From NCBI GenBank assembly GCA_964607655.1, contig CAZSKX010000001.1, positions 363,010 through 427,009 of the forward strand: a DNA stretch of 64,000 nucleotides, given 5' to 3'. This stretch comes from an uncultured Candidatus Saccharibacteria bacterium (lineage in GTDB: Bacteria > Patescibacteriota > Minisyncoccia > Phycocordibacterales > Phycocordibacteraceae). Every line of letters begins with the position of its first letter. The stretch's first letter is position 1. The notes under the pieces were generated by a model that had not been told where the DNA came from, ran no database searches, and saw nothing but the letters and a program-made list of their open reading frames with translations. The translations under genes and the position numbers were made by a program. This document shows, in pieces, positions 8,670 through 55,006 of the stretch.

Positions 8670-8744
8670 TGGAGGCCTGGGCGGGAATTGAACCCGCGCA
8701 TCGCGGTTTTGCAGACCGCTGTGTTACCACTTCACCACCAGGCC
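8670..8744 (-). tRNA. tRNA-Cys (GCA), CCA encoded
   Basis: Hand-folded cloverleaf: acceptor GGCCTGG/CCAGGCC, anticodon loop CTGCAAA, T-arm GCGGG-TTCAATT-CCCGC. Confidence 0.8.
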
Positions 8745-8786
8745 GTGCTTACAGAATAGCAGAGAAGCTGATATCATAAAAATCTT

Positions 8787-8875
8787 GTCGGGATGGCGGA
8801 ACTGGTAGACGCACAGGACTTAAAATCCTGGGAGGGCTTAAAAACCTCGTGTGGGTTCGACCCCCACTCCCGGCA
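8787..8875 (+). tRNA. tRNA-Leu (TAA), long variable arm
   Basis: Acceptor GTCGGGA/TCCCGGC, anticodon loop CTTAAAA, long variable arm and T-arm GTGGG-TTCGACC-CCCAC. Confidence 0.8.
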
Positions 8876-8970
8876 CAAAGCGGAGCTTTTTGAGTGAGGG
8901 GTCGAAGGCCGGAGCAGCTTGGCTGCGAGGCGGGGTCGCGCAAAATCTCAGCAGAGATTTATGTGTGACC

Positions 8971-8988
8971 GACCCCCACTCCCGGCAC
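8971..8988 (+). repeat. 18-bp direct repeat of the tRNA-Leu(TAA) 3' end (gacccccactcccggcac)
   Basis: Exact copy of 8859-8876, located 112 bp downstream. Confidence 0.85.
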
Positions 8989-9103
8989 TAATGCACGCAT
9001 GAGAGAAGGCACTTGGACAATACTTTTTAGTACTTGACAAATAGCCTACTTTGTAGTAGGCTACAATAAACTTCTGAACACCCAACACCCGTAAGGAGGG
9101 GTT

Positions 9104-9313
9104 ATGGATGCAGTGACTGCTCTTTTCAAGATGGCGTTGGTTCTCTGGGTCATGGCGATTGGCTTCGCGATGATCCTGCGTGGACCGACTGGCGCGCTGA
9201 CCACTTTCCAGTGGCCACTCGCCAGAGGATTCCGATTGGTTCGTCGGATGATCGGATCGCTCCTCGTGAGCATCGGTCAGGCGATTCATCCAGGACGCCG
9301 CCAGCGCCACTAA
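9104..9313 (+). CDS. Small membrane protein (69 aa)
   Basis: Strong SD AAGGAGG 4 nt upstream of the ATG and a hydrophobic helix; lies within the tRNA cluster. Confidence 0.45.
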   Translation: MDAVTALFKMALVLWVMAIGFAMILRGPTGALTTFQWPLARGFRLVRRMIGSLLVSIGQAIHPGRRQRH

Positions 9314-9407
9314 ACCAACCGTCCCCCCACCAGAAAGCCGTGGGAGGACGGTTTTCGATTTTACCAATACTAGACCTTGGCTCCGGCTCACACAAAGCTG
9401 TGCCTTG

Positions 9408-9489
9408 TGCTGGGAAGAGGACTCGAACCTCCATGGGTTGCCCCGCTAGCTCCTAAGGCTAGTGCGTCTACCAATTTCGCCATCCCAGC
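9408..9489 (-). tRNA. tRNA-Leu (TAG)
   Basis: Acceptor GCTGGGA/TCCCAGC, anticodon loop CTTAGGA, variable arm and T-arm GGAGG-TTCGAGT-CCTCT. Confidence 0.8.
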
Positions 9490-9528
9490 GTGTTTACACA
9501 ATACTATAGTTTGCTATATTTTCATTAA

Positions 9529-9601
9529 GCGCCTATAGCTCAGTTGGTAGAGCAGCTCCCTCTTAAGGAGACGGTCCCAGGTTCGAGCCCTGGTAGGCGC
9601 A
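9529..9601 (+). tRNA. tRNA-Lys (CTT)
   Basis: GCGCCTA...TAGGCGC acceptor stem, D-arm GCTCAGTTGGTAGAGC, anticodon loop CTCTTAA and T-arm CCAGG-TTCGAGC-CCTGG. Confidence 0.85.
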
Positions 9602-9943: not shown

Positions 9944-9972
9944 TTGACATTTCGATACTTTTGTGTATTATG
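9944..9972 (+). promoter_or_regulatory. Sigma70-like promoter (TTGACA-17-ATTATG) directly after a terminator hairpin
   Basis: Hairpin 9918-9945 is followed by TTGACA, a 17-nt spacer and a TATAAT-like hexamer upstream of the 424-aa ORF. Confidence 0.45.
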
Positions 9973-10036
9973 GAGCGCAGAGACCGCCGCCCTGCTTCAG
10001 GGCAATAGGTCATTGACAACTGGAGAGGTAAGGAAC

Positions 10037-11311
10037 ATGTTCTACATCTACGCAACCCTAGTTGCACTGGCCTGTTACGTTCTCTACACGTTCCCCGTTC
10101 TGTTGCTTTTGCCTGTTCCGGCCATTCTGGCCTGGGCAGTGTGGAAGGCTCAAATCTGGGTACTCAACAACATGCGCAACACCGATGGTCAGGTCACGAC
10201 AAACGCGACCTGGACCCTCGGTGTGGCACAGGCCATCATCATCGGCCTCGCGTCGGGCTTCTGTGCCTACACGCTGGTCAACGCGACGCTCGACTTCTGG
10301 TACCTGGAAGAGATCCTGGGCCCAGCGGTTGGCGTGGGCACTGCCCTCTACGTAGGGCAGTGGGTATTCGATCGGTTCGTCGAGGTCGAGCTCTACTACG
10401 TTGGTATCGGGCTCGACCGCGGGACGCCGACCGGGAGACTCTACGAGCAGGGCAAACACTGGGTGCCCTTCCTTCACAGTCTCGTTGGGTGCCCGTACAA
10501 GGGAGCCCAGCTCGCGCCGCTTCTCATGCCGCACGAAAAGATCTCGACCCGTGACGGGTCGCAGGTTGAGTTCGGCATCGACGAAGAGGACCTGCAGAAG
10601 CGGAACCGGATCGTCTACCAGATCATCAGCCCCCTCGTTTACGTCGGCGTTGTCGACCCTGACGACCGGATGCGTGAGGAGTTTCTGGAAAAGGCTCGAA
10701 TCTTCTTCTCGAAGATGGCGAACGCCATCGGCGTGAAGGTGGAGAAGACTCTTTTCAGCGACTGGCTCATGCTGCGGCCTGGTGGCTACGACAAGGATGG
10801 CAACCTCCTCGACTGGAATCTCGGCCTCGAGGTCTCCAGCTTCATCGGCAAGCTCCGTGCCATCACCTTCGAAGACGCAGGCGGCAAGACGCAGCGACTC
10901 TTTGAAGAAGACGGCCTCATGGTTCTCTTGGAGAACTCAGGAGAATTTCTGACTCGGTTGAGCGGATGGGGCATCGGCGAAGTTCTCGTCTTCACCCCGA
11001 ACGTGAATCCCGACACAGAGATCCTCAAGGCCATCACGGCAAAGACGGCGGCCGGCGAAGCGATGGAGGCTGTCGAGACCCGCGTCAAGAAGCAGAAGAC
11101 GCTCATCGCTGCGCTGAAGAAAACCGGGATGAGCCCGGATCTCGCCGCGGCAATCGTGAACAACGAGTCGGGTGGCAAGTCCACCGTCAATGTCTCGCAC
11201 AGCACGAACACGGTGACCGATCTGGCAAAGGCCGCGGAAGCGCTCGGTGCCGGCATCGGCGCAGTCCTTGGCAAAAAGGTCGGGGAGACAGCGCTCCCTG
11301 AGGAAAAATAA
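10037..11311 (+). CDS. Hypothetical membrane-anchored protein (4 N-terminal TM helices + ~300-aa soluble domain)
   Basis: Start moved to the ATG with SD GGAGAGGTAAGG; no recognisable motif; 424 aa. Confidence 0.55.
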   Translation: MFYIYATLVALACYVLYTFPVLLLLPVPAILAWAVWKAQIWVLNNMRNTDGQVTTNATWTLGVAQAIIIGLASGFCAYTLVNATLDFWYLEEILGPAVGVGTALYVGQWVFDRFVEVELYYVGIGLDRGTPTGRLYEQGKHWVPFLHSLVGCPYKGAQLAPLLMPHEKISTRDGSQVEFGIDEEDLQKRNRIVYQIISPLVYVGVVDPDDRMREEFLEKARIFFSKMANAIGVKVEKTLFSDWLMLRPGGYDKDGNLLDWNLGLEVSSFIGKLRAITFEDAGGKTQRLFEEDGLMVLLENSGEFLTRLSGWGIGEVLVFTPNVNPDTEILKAITAKTAAGEAMEAVETRVKKQKTLIAALKKTGMSPDLAAAIVNNESGGKSTVNVSHSTNTVTDLAKAAEALGAGIGAVLGKKVGETALPEEK

Positions 11312-11323
11312 GGAGAGGAGACG

Positions 11324-11770
11324 ATGAGCAACCTGACTCGTGAACTTGGGCGACCGCAGCCGTCTGAGGGAAGCCAGAAGAATGTATGGAAGGTCATCCA
11401 GACCATCGTCGTTCTGATGATTCTCTCGGGCATGGCTTCTGCCGTCCGGTCGTGTCGCTCGTCGGAGTCGGAGAACCCGACCCTGACGGTGGCAACCCCG
11501 CGCGAAAACCCCTCCGTCACCTGCGACTTCGCAAGTGGCCGGGAGAAGCGATACTGCCACCTCCCTCGCAGGGAGTGCAGCCGAGAGATCACCTTCGATC
11601 CTGCAGAGGGGAAGGCGAACGACGGCAAGGTACTCTCCTATGGCCCAACAGAAGAAGGCGTCGTCCTCCACCGGTGGACGAATGTCTACGGAGGGACGGT
11701 GTATCAGCTCTGTGCGACCGGCAGCCACGCTGTCGACGCGTACTACAAGCTCATCCCGAAGCCTGACTAG
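11324..11770 (+). CDS. Hypothetical protein with N-terminal TM and Cys-containing domain
   Basis: SD AAGGAGAGGAG upstream; 13-nt gap from the previous gene suggests a co-operon; terminator hairpin follows at 11791-11831. Confidence 0.5.
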   Translation: MSNLTRELGRPQPSEGSQKNVWKVIQTIVVLMILSGMASAVRSCRSSESENPTLTVATPRENPSVTCDFASGREKRYCHLPRRECSREITFDPAEGKANDGKVLSYGPTEEGVVLHRWTNVYGGTVYQLCATGSHAVDAYYKLIPKPD

Positions 11771-11790
11771 CCTCCTTCTTGTTCCTTCAT

Positions 11791-11831
11791 CGCCCGTCAT
11801 ACCATCCAGGTATGGCGGGCGATCTCTTTTT
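11791..11831. terminator. Convergent terminator hairpin
   Basis: cgcccgtcatacc-atccag-ggtatggcgggcg followed by a T-tract; sits between convergent genes. Confidence 0.5.
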
Positions 11832-12129
11832 ATGGGGCGGGCAGATCTCCCTCGCAGGTGAGCAGTCCCCATGGCCCGGGCGTCTCACAGTTGAAAGTTC
11901 TCAGAGCAATATTGATGATCCCGAACGCGCCGAAGATTATCGTTAATCCGATCAATCCCCATAGCATGGAATCTTTACCAACCTTGCGCTTGGCCGGGTC
12001 TCCGGCACCTGCGATAAACTGAACAATTCCCCAGAGAAAAACCACAAACGCCCCTGCCGTAAGCAGGAGCATAAGCGGATTCACTATCTGAACAACAACG
12101 CGGTCGAGAAAGTTGAGCAGCGCTGACAT
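11830..12129 (-). CDS. TrbC/VirB2-like T4SS pilin-family small membrane protein (paralog 1)
   Basis: Two hydrophobic helices separated by a charged G-AGD-AKRK-GK loop and a C-terminal WGL-N motif shared with its five neighbours. Confidence 0.55.
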   Translation of the reverse strand: MSALLNFLDRVVVQIVNPLMLLLTAGAFVVFLWGIVQFIAGAGDPAKRKVGKDSMLWGLIGLTIIFGAFGIINIALRTFNCETPGPWGLLTCEGDLPAP

Positions 12130-12500
12130 TACCCACCGATCTGGACTCCTGCCGAAGGCGTACCCCCTGAAGGACCAGTGTTGTCACCGAAGTCGAAGGT
12201 GCCGACGAGGATGTTAACAAGACCCCAGATCGAGACCATGACGAAGAAGCCGATCAAGCTGTAAAGCATGAGACTCTTGCCCTTGTCCTTGGCGTCTTCT
12301 GAGCCGGCTCCAAGGATAAAAGTCGTAAAGGCGCCCCAAAGGAAGACGATAAAGGCAACCGCGAAGAGCACCGGAACGATAATATTATTTATCGTATCGA
12401 TGATAAATGTTCCGACATCACTGATGTCATTAAGAGCGGCGAAGGTGACCATCGGAAGGGTCAACGCAGCGAGAGTGCTAAGAGTTACGACTTTTTTCAT
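12129..12500 (-). CDS. TrbC/VirB2-like pilin-family protein (paralog 2)
   Basis: Signal peptide, then IIVPVLFAVAFIVFLWGAF...GAGSEDAKDKGKSLMLYSLIGFFVMVSIWGLVNIL. Confidence 0.6.
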   Translation of the reverse strand: MKKVVTLSTLAALTLPMVTFAALNDISDVGTFIIDTINNIIVPVLFAVAFIVFLWGAFTTFILGAGSEDAKDKGKSLMLYSLIGFFVMVSIWGLVNILVGTFDFGDNTGPSGGTPSAGVQIGG

Positions 12501-12596
12501 ACTTTGTATAAGTGGCTAATGGGTTAATTGTAGCTTGGCGAAACGTAAGGTCAATGCAGTTTGCGCGCCAGTGTGGATAGCTGGCTCGACAGTAGC

Positions 12597-12995
12597 CTAA
12601 AGAATTGGCCGAAGGGTTGGCGTTGGTATACCTGTATTATCTTGCTTATCTAAGTTAAGCGTCTCCTTGACGATAAACACGATGCCCCACACCGAGAGGA
12701 TGATGACGAATCCTATAATCCCATTCATGGCGAACTTCCTCCCCTCCGTGCGCGCCTTTTCATCGGCTGCACCTAAGATGAAGTATTTATAGATACCCCA
12801 GAGAAAGACGATGAGCGCCACCGCCATAAGCATGGGTACTAAATAAATGTTTATGAAGCCAATGAGATCATTGGCATAGTAACCGATGTACGTGAAGTCG
12901 AGACCGTCTGCTGTTCCTGCTGATGCCGCTGCCGCTGCAGGTAGGATGAGGTACCCTATTGCTCCCACTCCCGCTACTTTTGCTGATGTTGTCAT
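12597..12995 (-). CDS. TrbC/VirB2-like pilin-family protein (paralog 3)
   Basis: Same two-helix core (LVPMLMAVALIVFLWG...GAADEKARTEGRK...SVWGIVFIV). Confidence 0.55.
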   Translation of the reverse strand: MTTSAKVAGVGAIGYLILPAAAAASAGTADGLDFTYIGYYANDLIGFINIYLVPMLMAVALIVFLWGIYKYFILGAADEKARTEGRKFAMNGIIGFVIILSVWGIVFIVKETLNLDKQDNTGIPTPTLRPIL

Positions 12996-13005
12996 AAGAA
13001 GTGAA

Positions 13006-13467
13006 TTAATAAGTGTAAGAGGTTGGTAACGTTTGCAGAGTCGCGTTCTGCAGACCGAAGGTGTTCGCTACGATGTTTACGAGTCCCCAGAGCGAGATCA
13101 TGATGACGAAGCCAATAATCCCCCACAAGATAAGGCGATGACCCTTCCTGACCTCCCCCTCGTCCCCGAGGGAAAAGATATACGTCTTCGCGACACCATA
13201 CAAGAAGGTAATAAACGCCACCGCAAAGAGCAATGGGACAAGGATCGAGTTGATAAGGTAGAGAAGCGTAACGCCAATACGGCAAATCGTAAGCTGGCAA
13301 GAGGCTTGACCGCCCCCACCGCCCCCACCCTCGCCTCCAGCAACACAGAGGCCGTCTGCTCCTCCAATACACAGCCCCGCCCACCAGTCAGCAGCCAGGG
13401 TCCTCGTTGGTAGCAGTATCGCAACGCTCATGATGCTAAGCACGAGAATGAGAAGCGCAGTCCTCAT
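13006..13467 (-). CDS. TrbC/VirB2-like pilin-family protein (paralog 4) with Gly/Cys-rich insert
   Basis: Signal peptide MRTALLILVL..., then GLCIGGADGLCVAGGEGGGGGGGQASC, then the conserved pilin core. The start was chosen to avoid overlap with paralog 5. Confidence 0.5.
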   Translation of the reverse strand: MRTALLILVLSIMSVAILLPTRTLAADWWAGLCIGGADGLCVAGGEGGGGGGGQASCQLTICRIGVTLLYLINSILVPLLFAVAFITFLYGVAKTYIFSLGDEGEVRKGHRLILWGIIGFVIMISLWGLVNIVANTFGLQNATLQTLPTSYTY

Positions 13468-13508
13468 CCGACTTGATAGTGACATATGCATGAAGTATGA
13501 CATGAAGA

Positions 13509-13763
13509 TCAGCTCGGCAAGATCCCAAGCGTGGATAACATTATAAAGAGAATACCCCAAACACTAAACGCCACCGCAAAGCCCACCAAGCCCCAAAGTA
13601 CGAACTGCCGTGCCTCGGCAAGCTTGGAGGTATCGCTGCCGTATATAAAGAAATACTTCACTATGCCCAAAATGAAAGCCGCAAATGCGGCAGCGAATAT
13701 AAGGGGAACAATAATAGTATTAATCCCCTCGACGAGACTCTCGGCAAAAGTCTTGAACGTCAT
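13509..13763 (-). CDS. TrbC/VirB2-like pilin-family protein (paralog 5)
   Basis: 84 aa; IIVPLIFAAAFAAFILG...GSDTSKLAEARQ...SVWGILFIM. Confidence 0.55.
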   Translation of the reverse strand: MTFKTFAESLVEGINTIIVPLIFAAAFAAFILGIVKYFFIYGSDTSKLAEARQFVLWGLVGFAVAFSVWGILFIMLSTLGILPS

Positions 13764-13769
13764 ACCTAG

Positions 13770-14162
13770 CTAATTTCCCGAAAGGGCCTCTACCGTCGCC
13801 AAGATCCCGGTAGCTATCGCCTTAGAGCCAAGCACGATAAGCGCTCCGACAATGGTCCAGACAAACGCGTCACGAGCCTTACTGATCTCTCCAGGATTTC
13901 CTCGTGCCATAACAAAAAGATACCCGACATACACCATCATAAATGCGACGACCACCGATCCAACCGCCACCACGAAATCGAGGATCTGGACAAGAAACTC
14001 TGCAAGGCTGGAAGGCCCCCCATCAATACCTAGAGGGTTAAGCAGCCGCACTCCAATATCGTTCCCCAAGTTCCCGGGTGTATCATCCACCTCAGCGAAG
14101 ACCACCGATGTCCCTGATAAAAGGAGCATCGCAAAGATTAGCAAGGCAACAGTCTTTCTCAT
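13770..14162 (-). CDS. TrbC/VirB2-like pilin-family protein (paralog 6, most canonical)
   Basis: Signal peptide, then the two-helix pilin domain with ARGNPGEISKARD loop. Confidence 0.6.
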   Translation of the reverse strand: MRKTVALLIFAMLLLSGTSVVFAEVDDTPGNLGNDIGVRLLNPLGIDGGPSSLAEFLVQILDFVVAVGSVVVAFMMVYVGYLFVMARGNPGEISKARDAFVWTIVGALIVLGSKAIATGILATVEALSGN

Positions 14163-15466
14163 TGAAGTGATAGGCTTAATTCTGCTGTCGCGCGAGTGAG
14201 TGCCTCACCAGGAGTGAACCGTCCGCTCGTCACGTTTACAATCATACCCGAGAACGCCTTATCCACATCAATGGGTGCTGGGGACAGCCAGCCTTTCGTA
14301 TACAGAGCCGAAGTGTACGCGACATTCGCGAGAGTGTCTGAAGGAGGTTTGGTCAACACGGTGCGCGATACGGGAGCGAGTCCGGTCATTTCGGCTGCCA
14401 GAACTTGCTCTTCAGTGTTGGTCAGCAGGGCCGCCGCTTGGTAGGCTCCACTTGGATTCTTTGCCCCACGCGTAATCATGAACGAATAGATGAGCCCGTA
14501 CGTTGCCTTCGTGGGAGCATTCGCCGGCTGCGGAATCGAAGCCACCGTAAAGTTTAGGTTCGGATTGGCTTCGGCAAGCGCGTTTGCTTCCGACGAGTAG
14601 CCAATGTAAAGGGCCAAATCTGCTGTCGCAAAGGCTTGTTGTGAATTAGGAAGTGAGCTGTTCCAGGTGTAGGAAAGTTTCGCCGGATCTACGAACTGCG
14701 TATAGAACGCGAGCACTGCTTCCCCAGCCGATGTGCCACCGCCCATGACGCTGCGAGTCAACTCAACCTGTACTTGTCCGGTCGGTTGGATCGAAACCAT
14801 AGGGACACGCGTCTGAAGGAAAAGCGTCGAGAGGATCCCTCGAGCATTTTGTACATTCCCGTAGCTTCCCAGACCAATAAGTCCTCGCGTTATCTGTTTT
14901 GAGGGAGTAATGACCGACAGCTTAGGAACGAGACCTACCAGACTTTCCCAGGTCGCCGGAGGTCGAGTAAGACCGTTAGAAGCCAAAATGTCACTGTTTG
15001 CATACAGTATTAACGGATCGACCAAGAAGGGGATTCCGTAGTAGCCTGTCCCGGCTGGATGCCTGAGAATGCTCGCCCCATCGATAAAACTATTGGCAAA
15101 AACACTTTCGGAAAGCGCTGCGCTTGGAACGGGGGCAATAAACGGCACAAGCGGTACCAGCTGTTCTTGCGAAGCAAGCACCGCATCCGGAGCCTTCCCT
15201 GTCGCAATAGCCGCAGCCAAGTCCGTTGCGAGCGCATTGGCGTTAACTTCAGTATAGGCGACATTTTTAAGCGCCTCATTGGTTTTACCAATTTCGAGAA
15301 GCATGGGCGCGATGACACTCCTCGGCAAGGTTCCCCAAACAGAGACCGGGCCGATTTGAACTCCGCCAGAACTTTTACCGTCGTATGTGGCAAATATAAA
15401 TATGCCGACTAAGGCACCGAACACGAAGACCCCGGTCACTATCCCCTGAAAAAGAGAAACTTTCAT
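14159..15466 (-). CDS. Membrane-anchored extracellular solute-binding-protein-like (SBP family 1-like) protein
   Basis: N-terminal TM anchor and a ~400-aa Ala/Gly/Thr-rich periplasmic domain. The layout resembles ABC-transporter SBPs, but no permease or ATPase is adjacent. It overlaps pilin paralog 6 by 4 nt. Confidence 0.4.
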   Translation of the reverse strand: MKVSLFQGIVTGVFVFGALVGIFIFATYDGKSSGGVQIGPVSVWGTLPRSVIAPMLLEIGKTNEALKNVAYTEVNANALATDLAAAIATGKAPDAVLASQEQLVPLVPFIAPVPSAALSESVFANSFIDGASILRHPAGTGYYGIPFLVDPLILYANSDILASNGLTRPPATWESLVGLVPKLSVITPSKQITRGLIGLGSYGNVQNARGILSTLFLQTRVPMVSIQPTGQVQVELTRSVMGGGTSAGEAVLAFYTQFVDPAKLSYTWNSSLPNSQQAFATADLALYIGYSSEANALAEANPNLNFTVASIPQPANAPTKATYGLIYSFMITRGAKNPSGAYQAAALLTNTEEQVLAAEMTGLAPVSRTVLTKPPSDTLANVAYTSALYTKGWLSPAPIDVDKAFSGMIVNVTSGRFTPGEALTRATAELSLSLQ

Positions 15467-15469
15467 ACG

Positions 15470-16006
15470 CTATGCTCTACTAAATATAGCACCATGGTGG
15501 TGGGCACCGGCGTGGAGACTCTTTACTTTTTTAAATCCGGCGCGCGCCACAAGCTCCTCGGCCTTCGCCTCAGTCACCACCTGCTCCTTTGCCGGTCCCA
15601 TTCCTCCATGACTGTCGGTCCAGTCGACGATGAGTAGATGACCTTCGCTCTTCAATACTCGAGCCACTTCGCGCAAAAGTTCGTCGTGATCTTCAGCCTG
15701 AAAAAGAACATTCGCGAGCACGACAGCATCGAGCGATTCATCACGGAGGTGGCTACCGCCGTATTTCTCGATATTGCCCCAGACCGCTTCGATGATCGAC
15801 TGATGGTGGAGGTGTGTGTTGAGCTTCAGGTGTTTTAATACATCCTCTTGGATATCGACTGCGTAGACCTTGCCTGTATCGCCCACCGCGCCGGCGAGCG
15901 CGCGAGCGTAGTGTCCGCTCCCAGCGCCAAAATCACCCACTCTCATTCCCTCTTTGAGTCCCAGTTGGAGGATGATCTCCTGCGGACTACTAAAAGACCC
16001 ATGCAT
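15470..16006 (-). CDS. Class I SAM-dependent methyltransferase
   Basis: Motif I VGDFGAGSGHYA and a post-I acidic residue (VDIQED); it is the first gene of the minus-strand operon (3-nt gap to the next gene). Confidence 0.7.
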   Translation of the reverse strand: MHGSFSSPQEIILQLGLKEGMRVGDFGAGSGHYARALAGAVGDTGKVYAVDIQEDVLKHLKLNTHLHHQSIIEAVWGNIEKYGGSHLRDESLDAVVLANVLFQAEDHDELLREVARVLKSEGHLLIVDWTDSHGGMGPAKEQVVTEAKAEELVARAGFKKVKSLHAGAHHHGAIFSRA

Positions 16007-16075: not shown

Positions 16076-16111
16076 AAAAAGGCGGGCCCGCTCCACGTGG
16101 TGGAGCGGGCC
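16076..16111 (-). terminator. Rho-independent terminator for the upstream minus-strand gene
   Basis: ggcccgctccac-gtgg-gtggagcgggcc with a T-tract on the minus strand. Confidence 0.6.
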
Positions 16112-16125
16112 TTTGTTGGCTGCGA

Positions 16126-16368
16126 CTAATCGCAACCATTGGCGTCTTCGTAGATCTGGTCCTGGAGTCGGCGGTGCAACTCGTCGTCGCGCAACTTAAG
16201 CTGGAGCAGTGCTACATCGAGTGCCCGTTCTTCGGTCGCTTCGCGAATGTAAATCGCGCCGTCGAGCACGCTGAGATGGATCGGGAGCGAAAGCCGGGGG
16301 TCGCACTGCAGATTGTAGGGACCACTTTTCTTCAGCCTTGCGAGTTTTTCGAGAAAGGTGTCGGGCAC
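16126..16368 (-). CDS. Hypothetical protein (80 aa)
   Basis: ORF with its own terminator; no recognisable motif. Confidence 0.35.
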   Translation of the reverse strand: MPDTFLEKLARLKKSGPYNLQCDPRLSLPIHLSVLDGAIYIREATEERALDVALLQLKLRDDELHRRLQDQIYEDANGCD

Positions 16369-23733: not shown

Positions 23734-24330
23734 TTAACGCGTATTGGCGAACATCGTCGCCGCTTCAGTTCCGTCAGTGACGAAGAGCTGCGCTGCTTCT
23801 ACACTCTTCTTCATAACTTTTTTTAATACTGTGTCTTCAGTCGACTTGAACTTCCCGATCACGTGCTTGATCACTTTTTCTTCTCCTGAGACTTTCTTTG
23901 CCTGATTTTTCTTCCCCGCAGCACTGATCCCGATGCGTAGACGCGCGAAGTCTTTCGTCTTGATCGCCCGCATGATGCTCTCGACGCCCTTGTGGCCGCC
24001 GCTGCCGCGTCCGACGACCATCTTCGTCACCCCGAGCGGCAGATCGAGATCGTCCTGCACCACGAGCAGCGTCTTTGCTGCTTTTACAGATTTAACAAAT
24101 GGAATTACCGCCTTTCCTGAGAGATTCATCATCGTCTCGGGTAGCACGAGGGTCACTTTTTCCTTGCCAATCTTTCCTTCTGCTACGAGCGCGTTCGCTT
24201 TTTTATTAAAAATGAAGTCATCGAAGCCTTCTGCCGCTGCGAGCTTCTCGACGAGCAGGCGTCCAGCGTTGTGCCGCGTCTTTTCGTATTCTTTACCGGG
24301 ATTCCCGAGGCCTACAATAACGAATGCCAT
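23734..24330 (-). CDS. pth: Peptidyl-tRNA hydrolase
   Basis: N-terminal VGLGNPG...YEKTRHNAG, a hallmark of the Pth family; start at the internal ATG. Confidence 0.85.
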   Translation of the reverse strand: MAFVIVGLGNPGKEYEKTRHNAGRLLVEKLAAAEGFDDFIFNKKANALVAEGKIGKEKVTLVLPETMMNLSGKAVIPFVKSVKAAKTLLVVQDDLDLPLGVTKMVVGRGSGGHKGVESIMRAIKTKDFARLRIGISAAGKKNQAKKVSGEEKVIKHVIGKFKSTEDTVLKKVMKKSVEAAQLFVTDGTEAATMFANTR

Positions 24331-24406
24331 GCGCAGATCGTACCACACCACACTCTTTTGCGCGCACACAACTTGCATGCAGAAAAAGTGCGCGTACAAT
24401 ACGCAC

Positions 24407-24991
24407 ATGTCTGACTCTTGGAAAGGTCTTTTGAAGGATCTTTTCACTCTCATCGTTCTTATCGTCGTCGTTGTTATACCGATTCGCCTTTTTATCATTT
24501 CGCCATTCATCGTCGACGGCGAATCGATGCATCCTACGTTTGGCAACCTCGACTACCTTGTCGTCGACGAGTTTATCTACTACTTCAAAGAGCCTGAGCG
24601 CGGCGACGTAGTCGTCTTCCGCTATCCGAAAAACCCTTCGGTCTTCTATATTAAGCGCATCATCGGTCTCCCAGGCGAAAAAGTTTCGATCAATCGGGGC
24701 GTCACGACGATCATCACCCCCAACGGCGAGACCATCGCACTCCCTGAGCCCTACGTGGTCAACGAAGACGCTACCTACACCAAGAATGTTATCCTGCGTG
24801 ACGACGAATACTTCGTCATGGGTGACAATCGCCCCAATTCGTCTGATTCGCGCGTCTGGGGACCGCTCTCAAGGGAACACGTCATCGGCCGCGTCGACCT
24901 GCGCCTCCTCCCCGTGTCGGGCGCATCCTTCTTCCCTGGTGCTATCACCTACCCAACTGAACTTTCAATTGCTACGACCACTGCACCATGA
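24407..24991 (+). CDS. lepB: Signal peptidase I
   Basis: TM anchor, then GESMHPTF (Ser box), RGDVVVF, YIKRIIGLPGE (Lys box) and GDNRPNSSDSR. Confidence 0.85.
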   Translation: MSDSWKGLLKDLFTLIVLIVVVVIPIRLFIISPFIVDGESMHPTFGNLDYLVVDEFIYYFKEPERGDVVVFRYPKNPSVFYIKRIIGLPGEKVSINRGVTTIITPNGETIALPEPYVVNEDATYTKNVILRDDEYFVMGDNRPNSSDSRVWGPLSREHVIGRVDLRLLPVSGASFFPGAITYPTELSIATTTAP

Positions 24992-42489: not shown

Positions 42490-43653
42490 TTACCGATTCC
42501 CCTTCGCTCGGTTGTGTGTTTTGCAGAGCATTTGACAGTTTGCCGCATCGGTCGCTCCCCCCTTACTCCAAGCAGCCACGTGATCGGCATCCATATCGGA
42601 CAAACTCCAGATCTTCTCCTTGTTGGCGTCATGCCCAATGGCGCACAAGGGACAATTTGATTCACTTTTTTCTTTCGCCGCTGCGGTCTGAGCCTCATAA
42701 ACTGAGCGTTTAGTCGCATCGTCAAACACGCGCACGTCCAACAACTTCGTGTCCACTTCGCCTCCTAATACATACTCGAAGATCCCTCGTCGGTTCTTGA
42801 CGTGCGCGTCTCCATAAAGACGCTGCACCGCGGCAGAAATTACCGCGGGATCGTAAGTTTGCGCATGGTACGTCTTGTACAAACGATTCCATTCCAGCCC
42901 CTTCATTTCGCTTTCGACATCAATGAAAATTGACGACACCCAATCAATGACTTTGTTGAAGTGATTTTTCAACTCAGTGATATCCGAATCCTGACGGTGC
43001 TTACTCATGTAGTTATCGATTGCCCCATCAGACACCCAGTCAAGCGCATGCTCCAGAAAAGCTTGGCGCTTGATATCACCAGAGACGTAGGCACTCCACT
43101 TCTGCACATTCGCATTTTGGCTATTACTAAACTCCTCACGCGCACGAGTCACAAAAGGCCCGGAGTAGACCGCGTTCAAAATCTCCTGCTCGGTTAGCGG
43201 CACACCCGCAATGTTGATCGTCTTGAACCAATCCTTGATCTCTGGCTCTTCGCCCTCGCATATGTAGATGAGCAACTTCGTATTCAAGATCTTCTCGCGC
43301 TGCACATCGGCCATCCCGCTATAGTATTGTTCGTGACCATTCTGGTCCCTTACCGCAAACAAACCGGTCACAAATCGACCAATACTAGTGATACGCTGCT
43401 GACCGTCGAGGACTTCAAACTTTTCGTTGCCCACCTGATTGAAATACATCACTCCGATTGGATAACCTTTCACAATGGAGTCGATTACTGCCACGTCACG
43501 CCTTCCGTCCGCGTATATGTAATTACGTTGGTACTCAGGCTGGATAGTAAGCGTACCTGATAGACCAAACAGACCCTTGCCTTCAAATGCATTGTATTCA
43601 AAACCGGCGACAACGTCGCGAATGGTGATGTCAGTTTTTAGTGCAGTTTTCAT
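42490..43653 (-). CDS. ParB-like/DUF262 nuclease-domain protein with C-terminal HNH endonuclease domain (GmrSD-like architecture)
   Basis: VLDGQQR (DUF262 signature) N-terminally; CPLC...DADHV...N...CKTHN (HNH) C-terminally; translationally coupled to both neighbours. Confidence 0.7.
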
Positions 43654-43654
43654 A

Positions 43655-44809
43655 TTATTTCTTCTTGTGCTTTATAAAAATTCTCTTGAAGGCCATTTTT
43701 GCAATGCCATTGTCGTAATAGCCTGCAGTTGGGTTGCCTTCCTTATACGCCCCCGTTCCACCTGCTTTATAGTAATCATCGACGAACTTCTTTGTTAGCC
43801 CTGGTGTCCGTTTGAACTCATCACCAACAAGTCCGTTATCGTTTGTGCCCAGGATCTCAAACTGTTCCGGTGAATACTTGTCTAGGAAGCTAATCGGCAC
43901 ACCCATTGCCCCATCGTAATCACTCGGTATGGCATCTGTAAATGGCACCTCGATTGCGTCGTAATTGTCATATTTATCGTAATCGGCCTTGTCTTTCATC
44001 TTTTTGTTAAATCTAAAATTGTCAGAATATGTCATAAGACTAAGCGGTCGGTGACGGCGACCATGATCAAGATTGGTAAACCAGCATGTGTTACCCATTT
44101 TCTGTTCGGACTTATCTGGTCTCACATATGTTTTTGCACCACTCACAACCCCCAACCACACCTTGTTCATCTTTATCAAAGGAAAAATTTCTTTATAAGT
44201 TATGGCATTCATGCTGCCAAGTATCAGAAATTGTTTGTTGTGCTCCATGAGCTGGGCCACATAAGGCCGAAACAGGCTAAATGGAGGATTGGTGACTACA
44301 ATGTCGGACTCTTTAAGCAGCTCGACGCATTCAGGACTTCGAAAGTCGCCATCGCCCTCTAGCGGCGACCACTCGTTATTTTTATTTTCCTTCAATTGCT
44401 GCGAAATATCTTTCAGCGTGAAGGAGCCATCCCCGTCCACATCGCCAACTTCGTTAATGATAAATTTGTTGGCCGTAATCTTCGGTCGGCCTTTGACAGG
44501 CTCGAGTGTCACATCGTCGCCAAATAGCCCGAGCTGAGTATTCGCAACAGGCGAGGGCTTGTAGCTCGTGGTAATAAGCCGCTTTAGACCGAGGCGTTTG
44601 AAATTAAGCACGAAGTAGCGGAAGAAGTTACTCTCGAACGGATCGTCGCAATTGCAGTAGACAATCTTATCCTTAAAAGTGTCGCGGTCGTACTCCAGAT
44701 AGGCCTCAATCTCTTTTTGAATATCGCTGTACTGCGTATAGAACTCGTCATTCTTTGCCTTTTTGGCATTTGTGAGATTGCTGTTCGCCATTACGCCAAA
44801 TAATCCCAC
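43655..44809 (-). CDS. EcoRI-family N6-adenine DNA methyltransferase
   Basis: N-terminal NDEFYTQ...VYCNCDDPF and the catalytic TNPPF (motif IV of m6A MTases); GTG start (an ATG alternative is at 44791). Confidence 0.65.
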
Positions 44810-52198: not shown

Positions 52199-52285
52199 CG
52201 GAGAGGGGGAGATTCGAACTCCCGATAGGCTTTCGCCTATGCCGGTTTTCGAAACCGGTGCCTTCAACCACTCAGCCACCTCTCC
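52199..52285 (-). tRNA. tRNA-Ser (CGA), long variable arm
   Basis: Acceptor GGAGAGG/CCTCTCC, anticodon loop TTCGAAA, long variable arm and T-arm GGGAG-TTCGAAT-CTCCC. ORF 52028..52279 is this tRNA read as protein. Confidence 0.8.
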
Positions 52286-54934: not shown

Positions 54935-55006
54935 GGCCCCATCGTCTAACGGCTAGGACAGCGCCCTTTCACGGCGTAAATCGGGGTTCGATTCCCCGTG
55001 GGGTCA
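54935..55006 (+). tRNA. tRNA-Glu (TTC)
   Basis: Acceptor GGCCCCA/TGGGGTC, D-arm TCTAACGGCTAGGA, anticodon loop CTTTCAC and T-arm CGGGG-TTCGATT-CCCCG. Confidence 0.8.

What the first reader, a model, noticed from the sequence alone, without database searches (positions are those of the whole stretch)
11830..16006. Eight-gene minus-strand operon: SAM-MTase, SBP-like protein and six tandem paralogous TrbC/VirB2-type pilin-like genes
Six consecutive small ORFs share one architecture: a signal or N-terminal segment, helix 1, a charged G-x-G-S/D-E-D-x-K-x-K-G-K loop, helix 2 and a WG(L/I)(V/L)N tail. This is the two-helix layout of conjugative/T4SS pilins of the kind common in CPR genomes. Their N- and C-terminal tails differ strongly. 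Gaps or overlaps between the genes are 0-96 bp, and the array is co-linear with a membrane-anchored solute-binding-like protein and a class I methyltransferase. No VirB4, VirB6 or VirD4 is present in the window. Possible roles include a multi-subunit or variant pilus, surface-variation paralogs or an attachment/DNA-uptake structure of an epibiont.
Basis: partly seen in the sequence, partly recalled or inferred. Interest (0 to 1): 0.7.

Follow-up and report, generated by a model that had tools for sequence, protein, structure and literature searches.

The report
Conserved six-gene VirB2-like pilin operon
This is a real, widely conserved operon of an ultra-small (Patescibacteria/CPR) bacterium that encodes a methyltransferase, a membrane-anchored sugar-binding-type protein and six different VirB2-like "secretion-system pilin" subunits. 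Such pilin arrays are already published, but the fixed link to the binding protein and the evidence that the subunits work together are new details.

Summary
On the minus strand, 11830-16006 holds a class I SAM methyltransferase, a TM-anchored CUT1/MalE-type solute-binding protein (SBP) and six small two-helix paralogs. All six match Pfam PF18895 (T4SS_pilin); five exceed the curated cut-off.

Tandem VirB2-like arrays in Patescibacteria are already published. They include an essential six-pilin array beside the T4SS of Southlakia epibionticum. The core finding is therefore a known kind.

New details:
- MTase-SBP-(4-7 pilins) is a conserved chromosomal operon in about 100 related loci, usually after gyrA. 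No T4SS gene lies within reach.
- The paralogs are position-specific orthologs: p1-type first, p5-type penultimate, short p6-type last.
- Relatives fuse 3-8 hairpins into one polypeptide, once inside the same operon. The paralogs are therefore physical neighbours, not interchangeable variants.
- A DnaA-box-like TATCCACA plus a sigma-70-like promoter precedes the penultimate gene (32 hits against 1 expected).

Best reading: one heteromeric envelope filament or conduit, probably assembled by a T4SS encoded elsewhere, with p5 as the major subunit. The roles of the SBP and the methyltransferase are inferred only.

The parts
16085..16111 (-). Strong terminator-like hairpin (12 bp stem, 10 GC pairs, T-run) between the gyrA region and the MTase start; marks the 5' boundary of the operon
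   Evidence: sequence
15470..16006 (-). Class I SAM-dependent methyltransferase, 178 aa, no TM segment (cytoplasmic); first gene of the operon
   Evidence: Pfam Methyltransf_11 2.2e-17 and Methyltransf_31 3.7e-17. It abuts or overlaps the SBP gene in nearly all related loci, even where gyrA is displaced.
14159..15466 (-). Solute-binding-type protein, 435 aa, with one N-terminal TM anchor (residues 8-26); CUT1/MalE/UgpB-like fold. Its stop overlaps the p1 start (ATGA).
   Evidence: Pfam SBP_bac_8 7e-23 and SBP_bac_1 4e-18; TM helix. AF2 model with pTM 0.70 matches oligosaccharide/maltodextrin/UgpB SBPs by Foldseek at E 1e-16 to 1e-19, TM 0.6-0.74. PDB sequence hits are sugar SBPs.
13770..14162 (-). 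Pilin-like paralog p1 (130 aa): signal peptide plus a ~30-aa extension plus a two-helix hairpin. It is the most divergent paralog and the most TrbC-like. The 'first-position' type is conserved in relatives.
   Evidence: PF18895 7.7e-7 (29.5 bits), PF04956 1.6e-4. It is the reciprocal best hit to the first gene of the array in 11 of 12 related loci and to the second gene in L008.
13509..13763 (-). Pilin-like paralog p2 (84 aa): bare hairpin with no signal peptide
   Evidence: PF18895 1.5e-5, 25.4 bits, just below the 26.6 cut-off; local profile 1e-23
13006..13503 (-). Pilin-like paralog p3 (~160-165 aa; start uncertain, between 13485 and 13503): signal peptide, a Cys- and Gly-rich ~45-aa extracellular extension, then the hairpin
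   Evidence: PF18895 8.9e-8; sequence
12597..12995 (-). Pilin-like paralog p4 (132 aa): signal peptide, hairpin and a 25-aa C-terminal tail
   Evidence: PF18895 4.6e-8
12572..12579 (-). DnaA-box-like motif TATCCACA (8 of 9 positions of TTATCCACA), 16 nt upstream of the -35 hexamer in the only long gap of the array
   Evidence: Intra-array gaps of 62 related arrays hold 32 hits against 1.0 expected (Poisson 3e-36), and 24 of 31 arrays have it before the penultimate gene. In L104 it is a perfect inverted 9-mer.
12527..12554 (-). Sigma-70-like internal promoter TTGACC-16-TACAAT (10 of 12), the best promoter match in the region; it would drive p5-p6
   Evidence: The -35/-10 pair is conserved in L003 and L021, and in L022 with a variant -10 (TATACT).
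12129..12500 (-). Pilin-like paralog p5 (123 aa): signal peptide, hairpin and a Gly/Pro-rich tail. It has the best Pfam match and is the most conserved paralog. It is the 'penultimate' type and the candidate major subunit.
   Evidence: PF18895 4.6e-10. It is 59-70% identical to orthologs where the SBP is 51-57% identical. The penultimate gene is p5-type in 34 of 38 arrays. AF2 predicts SP helix 3-23 and hairpin helices 26-63 and 68-101, with pLDDT 77-88 in the hairpin.
11830..12129 (-). Pilin-like paralog p6 (99 aa): no signal peptide, and a C-terminal tail with a Cys pair. Its start overlaps the p5 stop (TAATG). It is the 'last' type.
   Evidence: PF18895 5.4e-9. The last gene is p6-type in 30 of 38 arrays, with a median length of 92 aa.
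11789..11823 (.). Bidirectional terminator hairpin (15-bp stem) between the operon and the convergent gene 11324-11770

Best explanation
The region is a core chromosomal operon of a Kaiserbacteria/Paceibacteria-type Patescibacterium. It encodes a cytoplasmic class I methyltransferase, a membrane-anchored MalE/CUT1-type binding protein and six non-redundant VirB2-like (PF18895) two-helix membrane subunits.

Each subunit inserts as a hairpin. Both ends face outward and the short basic loop faces the cytoplasm; four of the six need signal-peptide cleavage. The six then co-assemble into one heteromeric envelope structure, either a pilus-like filament or a short conduit at the contact with the host cell.

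The four upstream paralogs (p1-p4), which carry variable and partly Cys-rich external tails, are proposed to be minor or initiating subunits in fixed stoichiometry. p5 has its own promoter with a DnaA-box-like site and is proposed to be the major polymerising subunit. p6 is a short accessory subunit.

Assembly is most likely driven by the Patescibacteria-type T4SS (VirB4/VirB6), encoded elsewhere in the genome. The co-translated binding protein would sit at the base of the structure, either capturing a host-derived (oligo)saccharide-like ligand or acting as an adaptor. The methyltransferase would modify a component.

Shown: family assignment, operon conservation, position-specific orthology, natural fusions and the conserved cis element. 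Inferred: filament formation, dependence on a T4SS, the major/minor division, and the roles of the SBP and the MTase.
For: - Published precedent. S. epibionticum has six sequence-divergent PF18895 pilins beside its T4SS, and the paper reports the pilin series as essential; Tn-seq rows seen here confirm three of the six (PMC10633639). 441 such arrays are reported in Patescibacteria (PMC12102498). T4SS pilins are among the most highly expressed unknown genes in cultured Paceibacteria (PMC10936435). VirB4 is present in 2,417 of 3,035 Patescibacteria assemblies.
- Conserved operon. MTase-SBP-(4-7 pilins) is found in L001-L013, L020-L022, L104 and nearly all of 80 metagenome loci that have enough downstream DNA. 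Genes overlap or abut.
- Non-redundancy. p1, p5 and p6 types keep their positions across arrays. The pilins diverge at about the rate of the SBP and the MTase.
- Physical adjacency. Single polypeptides carry 3-8 tandem hairpins with no internal stops, start codons or signal peptides. One 7-hairpin fusion lies inside the orthologous operon and appears in four contigs.
- Major subunit. An internal promoter plus a conserved TATCCACA motif precedes the penultimate gene. In L104 a small 106-aa signal-peptide pilin downstream of the fusion is amplified to four near-identical copies, at least three of them with their own terminator and promoter-like elements; its p5-type assignment is by position only.
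- Adhesive use of the hairpin. Relatives have a pilin-PKD fusion next to a PKD-repeat protein.
Against: - No T4SS gene lies in the 64-kb window or within 8-10 kb of the operon in any related locus. Dependence on a T4SS is therefore an assumption.
- The TrbC/VirB2 Pfam model is not reached.
- No VirB2-type pilus has ever been seen on a Patescibacterium.
- A 12-16-TM fused protein is hard to reconcile with subunit-by-subunit extraction into a long filament.
- Nothing tested here shows that the SBP or the MTase touches the pilins.
Confidence: 0.55

Rival explanations
1. A T4SS-independent membrane machine. The six hairpins (12 TM helices in all, 12-16 when fused) form a static oligomeric channel or ring in the cytoplasmic membrane. 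It works directly with the co-encoded binding protein as a new kind of SBP-dependent uptake or sensing device for host-derived sugars.
For: - The SBP is the invariant translationally coupled partner of the array in about 100 loci. It is also adjacent (divergent) to pilin arrays in a second, low-GC lineage (L014, L015, L019) with different flanks.
- The operon holds no ABC permease or ATPase, and no T4SS gene is nearby.
- The fused 6-8-hairpin polypeptides resemble polytopic membrane proteins.
- The SBP has a bona fide oligosaccharide-SBP fold with invariant aromatic and acidic residues.
Against: - There is no energy-coupling component in the operon.
- Cytoplasmic loops are only ~12 residues and carry no EAA-like motif.
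- In other Patescibacteria the same protein family sits inside T4SS clusters without any SBP, and it is essential there.
- One paralog type has its own promoter, and in L104 one small pilin is amplified to four copies. This fits a polymerising major subunit better than a fixed-stoichiometry channel.
Confidence: 0.22
2. Interchangeable pilin variants. The paralogs are alternative major pilins used one at a time for antigenic variation or host-range variation, as suggested in the literature by analogy with Bartonella and Anaplasma VirB2 arrays.
For: - N- and C-terminal external tails differ strongly between paralogs and between orthologs; BLAST coverage is only 45-70% for p1, p3 and p4.
- Copy number varies from 4 to 7 among relatives.
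- This interpretation is offered in PMC12102498.
Against: - Order and type are conserved across lineages with only 31-38% SBP identity.
- The cores evolve no faster than the neighbouring SBP and MTase.
- Natural fusions force several paralogs into one molecule.
- The six-pilin series of S. epibionticum is reported essential, and Tn-seq rows seen here confirm three of the six individually.
- The genes are co-transcribed and translationally coupled, with no sign of switching elements.
Confidence: 0.1
3. A remnant of an integrated conjugative element, or a decaying, non-functional gene set.
For: - The 12-14 kb segment has lower GC (50%) than its surroundings (55-60%).
- NCBIfam gives weak hits to a mycoplasma ICE pilin-like family.
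Against: - The operon occupies the same chromosomal position, between gyrA and the IF-2 region, in dozens of genomes.
- All ORFs are intact.
- There is no integrase, relaxase or repeat boundary.
- The low GC is what hydrophobic, Phe/Ile/Leu-rich coding sequence would give (inference).
Confidence: 0.03

Closest known systems
VirB2-like pilin arrays of Patescibacteria: the six essential pilins SEML1_0014-0019 of Southlakia epibionticum ML1, the 'Sec-secreted array' of Nanosynbacter lyticus TM7x, and 441 arrays in 383 assemblies
   Same: Same Pfam family (PF18895). The genes are tandem, sequence-divergent paralogs: mean core identity is 32% here and about 25% in the literature. The number of genes (six) matches S. 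epibionticum. The phylum is the same, and the small two-helix architecture with mixed presence of signal peptides is the same.
   Different: Here the array is not beside virB4, virB6 or prgI. It is fused into an operon with a methyltransferase and a membrane-anchored SBP downstream of gyrA, in a Paceibacteria/Kaiserbacteria-type lineage. [quoted passage not shown] The SBP/MTase linkage, position-specific orthology, hairpin fusions and the DnaA-box-like promoter element were not found in the papers read.
VirB2/TrbC/TraA conjugative pilins of Gram-negative T4SSs (T-pilus, F-pilus, RP4 pilus)
   Same: A small protein with a cleaved leader, two hydrophobic helices and a short basic connecting loop. 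There is a profile-level relationship: PF18895 is named a T4SS pilin, and p1 gives a weak TrbC hit.
   Different: PF04956 is below its cut-off. No sequence or significant fold match to solved pilins was found. There are six different subunits instead of one major pilin plus VirB5. The host is a monoderm. No adjacent VirB machinery, cyclase or acetylase is present. A filament has never been demonstrated.
Major/minor pilin logic of type IV pili and type II secretion pseudopili
   Same: Several paralogous small subunits are encoded in one operon. One abundant subunit appears to polymerise, and the others would form an initiating or tip complex. This is a functional analogy only.
   Different: The fold and family are unrelated. 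The window has no class III prepilin signal motif and no PilB/PilC/PilD.
CUT1-family ABC-transporter solute-binding proteins (MalE, UgpB, oligosaccharide SBPs)
   Same: Pfam SBP_bac_1 and SBP_bac_8, with a two-lobe fold (TM-score 0.6-0.74 to maltodextrin, sucrose, beta-glycoside and glycerol-3-phosphate binders).
   Different: The protein is anchored by an N-terminal TM helix. No permease or ATPase genes are adjacent in any of about 100 loci. Its conserved genomic partner is the pilin array instead.

Membership tests
Pfam PF18895 T4SS_pilin | Whole-protein score at or above the curated gathering score (26.6 bits) | tested here: met
   p1 29.5, p3 32.5, p4 33.5, p5 39.9 and p6 36.4 bits. p2 reaches 25.4 bits, marginally below. 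All close homologs carry precomputed PF18895.
Pfam PF04956 TrbC/VirB2 pilin | Score at or above the gathering score (27.9 bits) | tested here: not met
   Only p1 hits, at 22.3 bits and E 1.6e-4. The other five give no hit.
VirB2-type conjugative/T4SS pilin (functional class) | Leader peptide plus two hydrophobic helices joined by a short basic loop | tested here: met
   Hydropathy and alignment and the AF2 helices. Four of six have signal peptides; p2 and p6 have only a short N-terminus.
VirB2-type conjugative/T4SS pilin (functional class) | Encoded with, and dependent on, a VirB4/VirB6 T4SS | tested here: not met
   None in the 64-kb window or within 8-10 kb in about 100 related loci. Presence elsewhere in the genome could not be examined. 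The literature gives about 80% of assemblies with VirB4.
VirB2-type conjugative/T4SS pilin (functional class) | Structural similarity to solved conjugative pilins | tested here: inconclusive
VirB2-type conjugative/T4SS pilin (functional class) | Polymerises into an extracellular, lipid-containing filament | not testable with these tools
   Needs microscopy and biochemistry.
Patescibacterial VirB2-like pilin array (PMC12102498, PMC10633639) | Two or more tandem PF18895/VirB2-like genes of low mutual identity in a Patescibacteria genome | tested here: met
   Six tandem genes with core identity of 16-48%. Homologs are named Kaiserbacteria, Paceibacterota or Minisyncoccia.
ABC-transporter solute-binding protein, CUT1 type (SBP_bac_1/8) | Pfam score above cut-off and a two-lobe SBP fold | tested here: met
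   82.2 and 66.8 bits. Foldseek E 2.5e-19 to the sucrose/maltotriose binder 4qsd/4qrz.
ABC-transporter solute-binding protein, CUT1 type (SBP_bac_1/8) | Encoded with cognate permease and ATPase genes | tested here: not met
   No such genes in the operon or its flanks in the window or related loci.
Class I SAM-dependent methyltransferase | Rossmann-type SAM-binding domain (Methyltransf_11/25/31) above cut-off | tested here: met
   63.9, 51.2 and 62.8 bits. No specific NCBIfam equivalog is reached, so the substrate is unknown.
DnaA box (TTATCCACA) | Match to the 9-mer consensus at a conserved position | tested here: met
   8 of 9 in the window (12572-12579). ATCCACA is invariant in 11 aligned gaps. 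L104 has a perfect inverted 9-mer. Hits number 32 against 1 expected.
DnaA box (TTATCCACA) | Bound by DnaA, with an effect on transcription | not testable with these tools
   Needs EMSA, ChIP or reporter assays.

The most novel reading that the evidence does not exclude
The MTase-SBP-pilin operon is a distinct, previously unrecognised apparatus of Paceibacteria-type CPR bacteria. In it, a heteromeric ring or conduit built from VirB2-derived hairpins (fused into a single 12-16-TM protein in some lineages) works with a dedicated oligosaccharide-type binding protein to take material from the host surface. It acts independently of, or only loosely coupled to, the canonical T4SS. Its major subunit is put under DnaA (replication/cell-cycle) control. 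This would be the first SBP-coupled derivative of a T4SS pilin and a new route of nutrient acquisition in epibionts.
Probability: 0.15. Interest if true: 0.8.

Novelty: new variant of a known kind. Interest (0 to 1): 0.5.

Why it matters
Patescibacteria make up a large share of bacterial diversity and live by attaching to other cells. Their T4SS and its unusual pilin array are the only such system shown to be essential for growth, yet nobody knows what the pilins build.

This locus and its roughly 100 relatives give three testable handles:
- The paralogs are fixed-position, non-interchangeable subunits, and natural fusions prove they are neighbours. This argues for a heteromeric structure rather than antigenic variation.
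- In a large CPR clade the array is hard-wired to a sugar-binding-type protein and a methyltransferase rather than to virB4. This hints at an import or adhesion role.
- A DnaA-box-like site in front of the candidate major subunit suggests coupling to replication.

None of this changes the basic classification, which is already in the literature.

Tried and rejected
- Exact look-ups of the window's SBP and GyrA in the gene-position index found nothing. The rest of the source genome could therefore not be searched for T4SS genes. It is probably the 464,554-bp NCBI contig that carries the identical proteins P0001 and P0121.
- I tested whether the large genes next to the pilin arrays of the second lineage (L014, L015) are VirB4 or VirB6. 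They have no Pfam or NCBIfam hits, no PDB hit and no Walker A, so the 577-634-aa proteins are not VirB4. The 9-TM protein and the secreted 925-1225-aa protein stay unassigned; the latter has a GH5-like 'NEP' motif by eye only.
- The idea that the multi-hairpin proteins are stop-codon read-through artefacts of alternative genetic codes was rejected. Table-11 translation has no internal stops, the junctions lack Met and signal peptides, and one fusion recurs in four contigs.
- The idea that TATCCACA is a general promoter element of the lineage was rejected. Its background frequency in 1.16 Mb of loci equals chance, and the window has only three copies.
- The supplement of PMC10936435 is truncated, so the highly expressed adjacent pilin genes named in the text could not be mapped to array positions.
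- Organism labels such as 'Saccharibacteria' and 'Gammaproteobacteria' on some MAG records were not trusted. Protein-level names point to Kaiserbacteria/Paceibacterota.
- The primary promoter upstream of the MTase was not identified.

Full report
**1. What is in the sequence**

On the minus strand, 11830-16006 holds eight tightly packed ORFs:
- a 178-aa protein (15470-16006);
- a 435-aa protein (14159-15466);
- six small ORFs, p1 13770-14162, p2 13509-13763, p3 13006-13503, p4 12597-12995, p5 12129-12500 and p6 11830-12129.

For p3, the longest ORF would start at 13560 and overlap p2, so an ATG at 13503 or just downstream is the more likely start. Junctions are overlaps of 1-4 nt or gaps of 3-10 nt. 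The one exception is a 96-nt gap before p5.

A strong terminator-like hairpin lies upstream of the first gene (16085-16111). A 15-bp bidirectional hairpin follows the last gene (11789-11823).

The six small proteins align over a 77-column core made of helix 1, a ~12-residue charged loop and helix 2. Mean identity in this core is 32% (16-48%), and p1 is the outlier. Hydropathy gives two core TM helices in each. p1, p3, p4 and p5 also have an N-terminal signal-peptide-like segment ending in V-F-A, T-L-A, A-S-A and T-F-A. p2 and p6 begin directly before helix 1.

**2. Family assignment**

All six match Pfam PF18895 (T4SS_pilin) with E-values from 1.5e-5 to 4.6e-10. Five are above the curated cut-off; p2 is 1.2 bits below. 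p1 also gives a sub-threshold TrbC/VirB2 hit. NCBIfam gives only sub-threshold hits to the Mbov_0395 pilin-like conjugal-transfer family.

The 435-aa protein is an SBP_bac_8/SBP_bac_1 solute-binding protein with a single N-terminal TM anchor. Its AlphaFold model (pTM 0.70) matches maltodextrin, sucrose, beta-glycoside and UgpB binders at Foldseek E 1e-16 to 1e-19. The 178-aa protein is a class I SAM methyltransferase with no specific equivalog.

A profile of the six paralogs finds no further member among 401 ORFs of the window. The same profile hits 29,169 cluster representatives in a 1.84-billion-protein library, so the family is very large.

**3. Organism and context**

The SBP has a 100%-identical copy on an NCBI contig of 464,554 bp. 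Its homologs are named Candidatus Kaiserbacteria, Paceibacterota or Minisyncoccia (lineage).

The rest of the window is housekeeping: IF-2, GyrA, S1, signal peptidase I, FtsA, FtsZ, TrxB, a P-type ATPase, MgsA and others. It also holds a small restriction-modification island. No T4SS or type IV pilus component is detectable. The only canonical Walker A in an ORF of 300 aa or more belongs to MgsA, and no prepilin motif is present. One caveat applies: the VirB4 of S. epibionticum has no Pfam hit either. For that reason the Walker-A check was added.

**4. Conservation**

A genome scan with the SBP returned 19 loci. In L001-L003 and L005-L013 the order is MBL-fold protein, small protein, gyrA, MTase, SBP and then 4-7 pilin-like genes; L004 has the same upstream genes but its contig ends at the SBP. 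SBP identity in these loci falls as low as 30%.

A metagenome scan returned 80 more loci at mostly 31-45% SBP identity (one fragment, L024, at 86%). Every locus with about 2.5 kb or more of downstream DNA has 3-7 pilin-like genes directly after the SBP. The MTase abuts or overlaps the SBP in nearly all of them, even where other genes separate it from gyrA. Pfam-annotated contigs confirm this.

A second, low-GC lineage (L014, L015, L019) has the SBP divergently adjacent to a pilin array of at least three to six genes with quite different flanks. On one side are GroES/GroEL. On the other are a large secreted protein and a 9-TM protein. The SBP-array link is therefore not just inherited synteny with gyrA. 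Genes downstream of the array vary between loci, so the operon is MTase-SBP-pilins.

**5. The paralogs are not interchangeable**

Reciprocal best hits show position-specific orthology:
- The p1 type is the reciprocal best hit of window p1 in all 12 close loci, as the first gene in 11 of them and the second in L008.
- The penultimate gene is p5-type in 34 of 38 arrays.
- The last gene is p6-type in 30 of 38 arrays. It is short, with a median of 92 aa.

Across relatives the pilin cores diverge about as fast as the SBP and the MTase. p5 is the most conserved, at 59-70% identity where the SBP is 51-57%.

The library search also revealed single polypeptides with two or more tandem hairpins; the six inspected carry 3-8. 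They have no internal stops under table 11. Their junctions carry no Met and no signal peptide.

One fusion, P0247 with seven hairpins, lies inside the orthologous operon of L104: gyrA, MTase, SBP, pilin, pilin, fusion, then five small pilins. It is found in four contigs from different assemblies. This is Rosetta-stone evidence that paralogous hairpins sit side by side in one assembly. Another locus has an eight-hairpin fusion followed by a pilin-PKD fusion and a PKD-repeat protein, which fits surface display.

**6. A conserved cis element**

The 96-nt gap before p5 contains the best sigma-70-like promoter of the region, TTGACC-16-TACAAT at 12554..12527. Sixteen nucleotides upstream lies TATCCACA (12572-12579), which matches 8 of 9 positions of the DnaA box TTATCCACA.

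ATCCACA is invariant in the equivalent gap of 11 aligned relatives. In the intra-array gaps of 62 arrays the 8-mer occurs 32 times against 1.0 expected (Poisson 3e-36). In 24 of 31 arrays it lies before the penultimate gene.

Outside the arrays its frequency equals chance, and the window has only three copies. In L104 the box is a perfect 9-mer in inverted orientation, 5 nt upstream of an extended -10. There it precedes the first of four near-identical 106-aa pilin copies, at least three of which are followed by their own terminator- and promoter-like sequences. Independence from orientation suggests a protein-binding site. That DnaA is the binding protein is an inference from the consensus alone.

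**7. Structure**

AlphaFold on p5 with 41 orthologs gives a signal-peptide helix and a long helical hairpin (26-63 and 68-101). pLDDT is 77-88 in the hairpin and below 50 in the C-terminal tail.

**8. Literature**

Tandem VirB2-like arrays of 2-11 genes (441 arrays in 383 assemblies, about 25% mean identity) are described for Patescibacteria. There they are interpreted as possible host-range or antigenic variants (PMC12102498).

S. epibionticum ML1 has six PF18895 pilins, SEML1_0014-0019, divergent from its VirB4/PrgI/VirB6-like cluster near dnaA. The paper reports the pilin series as essential, and the Tn-seq rows retrieved here show this for SEML1_0017-0019 (PMC10633639). This system is highlighted in a 2025 T4SS review (PMC12857230).

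T4SS pilins are among the most highly expressed genes of unknown function in cultured Paceibacteria (PMC10936435). VirB4 occurs in 2,417 of 3,035 assemblies, and pilins lie near virB4 in 1,135 of 1,948.

None of the papers read mentions a solute-binding protein, this methyltransferase, hairpin fusions or a DnaA-box element with the arrays. That absence covers only the library searched.

**9. Interpretation**

The most likely reading is a heteromeric envelope structure built from six specialised VirB2-like subunits:
- p1-p4 are minor or initiating subunits. In relatives they carry variable, Cys-rich or adhesin-bearing external tails.
- p5 is the separately promoted, most conserved major subunit. 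In L104 a small signal-peptide pilin in the equivalent downstream position is amplified to four copies.
- p6 is a short accessory subunit.

Assembly by a T4SS encoded elsewhere is plausible on priors, because about 80% of assemblies have VirB4, but it is unshown. The SBP and the MTase are genuine operon partners whose roles are unknown.

The main rival is a T4SS-independent, SBP-coupled membrane channel. The absence of nearby T4SS genes and the polytopic fusions favour it. The lack of any energising component and the major-subunit features weaken it. The published 'variant pilins' idea is disfavoured here by positional orthology, ordinary evolutionary rates, the fusions and the reported essentiality of the six-pilin series in S. 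epibionticum.

**10. Verdict**

The core finding belongs to a published kind. The operon architecture, the subunit specialisation and fusions, and the conserved regulatory element make it a new variant worth a specialist's attention, but not a new category.

Noticed in passing
window 12527-12579 (minus strand); equivalent gaps in L003, L005-L013, L021, L022 and 27 of 50 metagenome arrays: A DnaA-box-like TATCCACA lies 16 nt upstream of a sigma-70-like promoter in the only long gap of the array, before the penultimate pilin gene. Intra-array gaps hold 32 hits against 1 expected. L104 has a perfect inverted TTATCCACA. This suggests DnaA or cell-cycle control of the candidate major subunit.
   Followed up: yes
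L104 10001-11821; L103 76-1743; L106 9925-12387; proteins P0241, P0247, P0265, P0270, P0274, P0371: Natural single-chain fusions of 3-8 pilin hairpins (336-820 aa), with no internal stops and no internal signal peptides. One of them sits inside the orthologous MTase-SBP-pilin operon and recurs in four contigs.
   Followed up: partly
L104 11966-14262: One 106-aa pilin is amplified to four near-identical copies, interrupted by a 135-aa variant. The three gaps that follow a 106-aa copy each hold a terminator hairpin and promoter-like sequences. This looks like gene dosage for a major subunit.
   Followed up: partly
L106 13152-16481 (also L107): A pilin hairpin is fused to a PKD domain (383 aa) and followed by a 718-aa PKD-repeat protein. 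The hairpin appears to serve as a membrane or filament anchor for adhesin-like domains.
   Followed up: no
L014 2314-11284; L015 3134-13245; L019 10-3327: A second, low-GC (37-44%) lineage has the SBP transcribed divergently from a five- or six-gene pilin array in L014 and L015 (at least three genes in L019, whose contig ends inside the array). In L014 and L015 the array is followed by a 925-1225-aa secreted protein (GH5-like 'NEP' motif by eye) and a 9-TM protein with no Pfam or NCBIfam hit. In L015 the SBP is followed by a ~100-aa ORF (GroES by position) and GroEL. Several of these records are labelled 'Gammaproteobacteria', which seems doubtful.
   Followed up: partly
window 42490-44809: An EcoRI-type adenine methyltransferase (PF13651, 2e-119) lies next to a GmrSD-N/HNH nuclease gene in the lowest-GC stretch of the window (47.7%). 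This is probably an acquired restriction or defence islet.
   Followed up: no
window 9944-11770: Two plus-strand genes converge on the operon: a 455-aa protein with three TM segments and a 148-aa protein. Both have high GC3 (0.76), no Pfam hit and no counterpart in any related locus (tblastn). They are probably a lineage-specific insertion.
   Followed up: partly
window 16126-16368 (minus strand): An 80-aa ORF with a strong GGAGG Shine-Dalgarno lies between gyrA and the terminator that precedes the operon. It is not conserved in the related loci.
   Followed up: partly
window 8673-9601: A cluster of four tRNA genes on both strands lies between rbfA/IF-2 and the lineage-specific insertion. Two more tRNA genes are at 52199-52285 and 54935-55006.
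   Followed up: no
window 23933-24991: A signal peptidase I gene (PF10502, 3e-43) is kept in the same syntenic block as the operon in relatives. It is the obvious candidate for processing the four signal-peptide-bearing pilins, but it is also a housekeeping gene.
   Followed up: no
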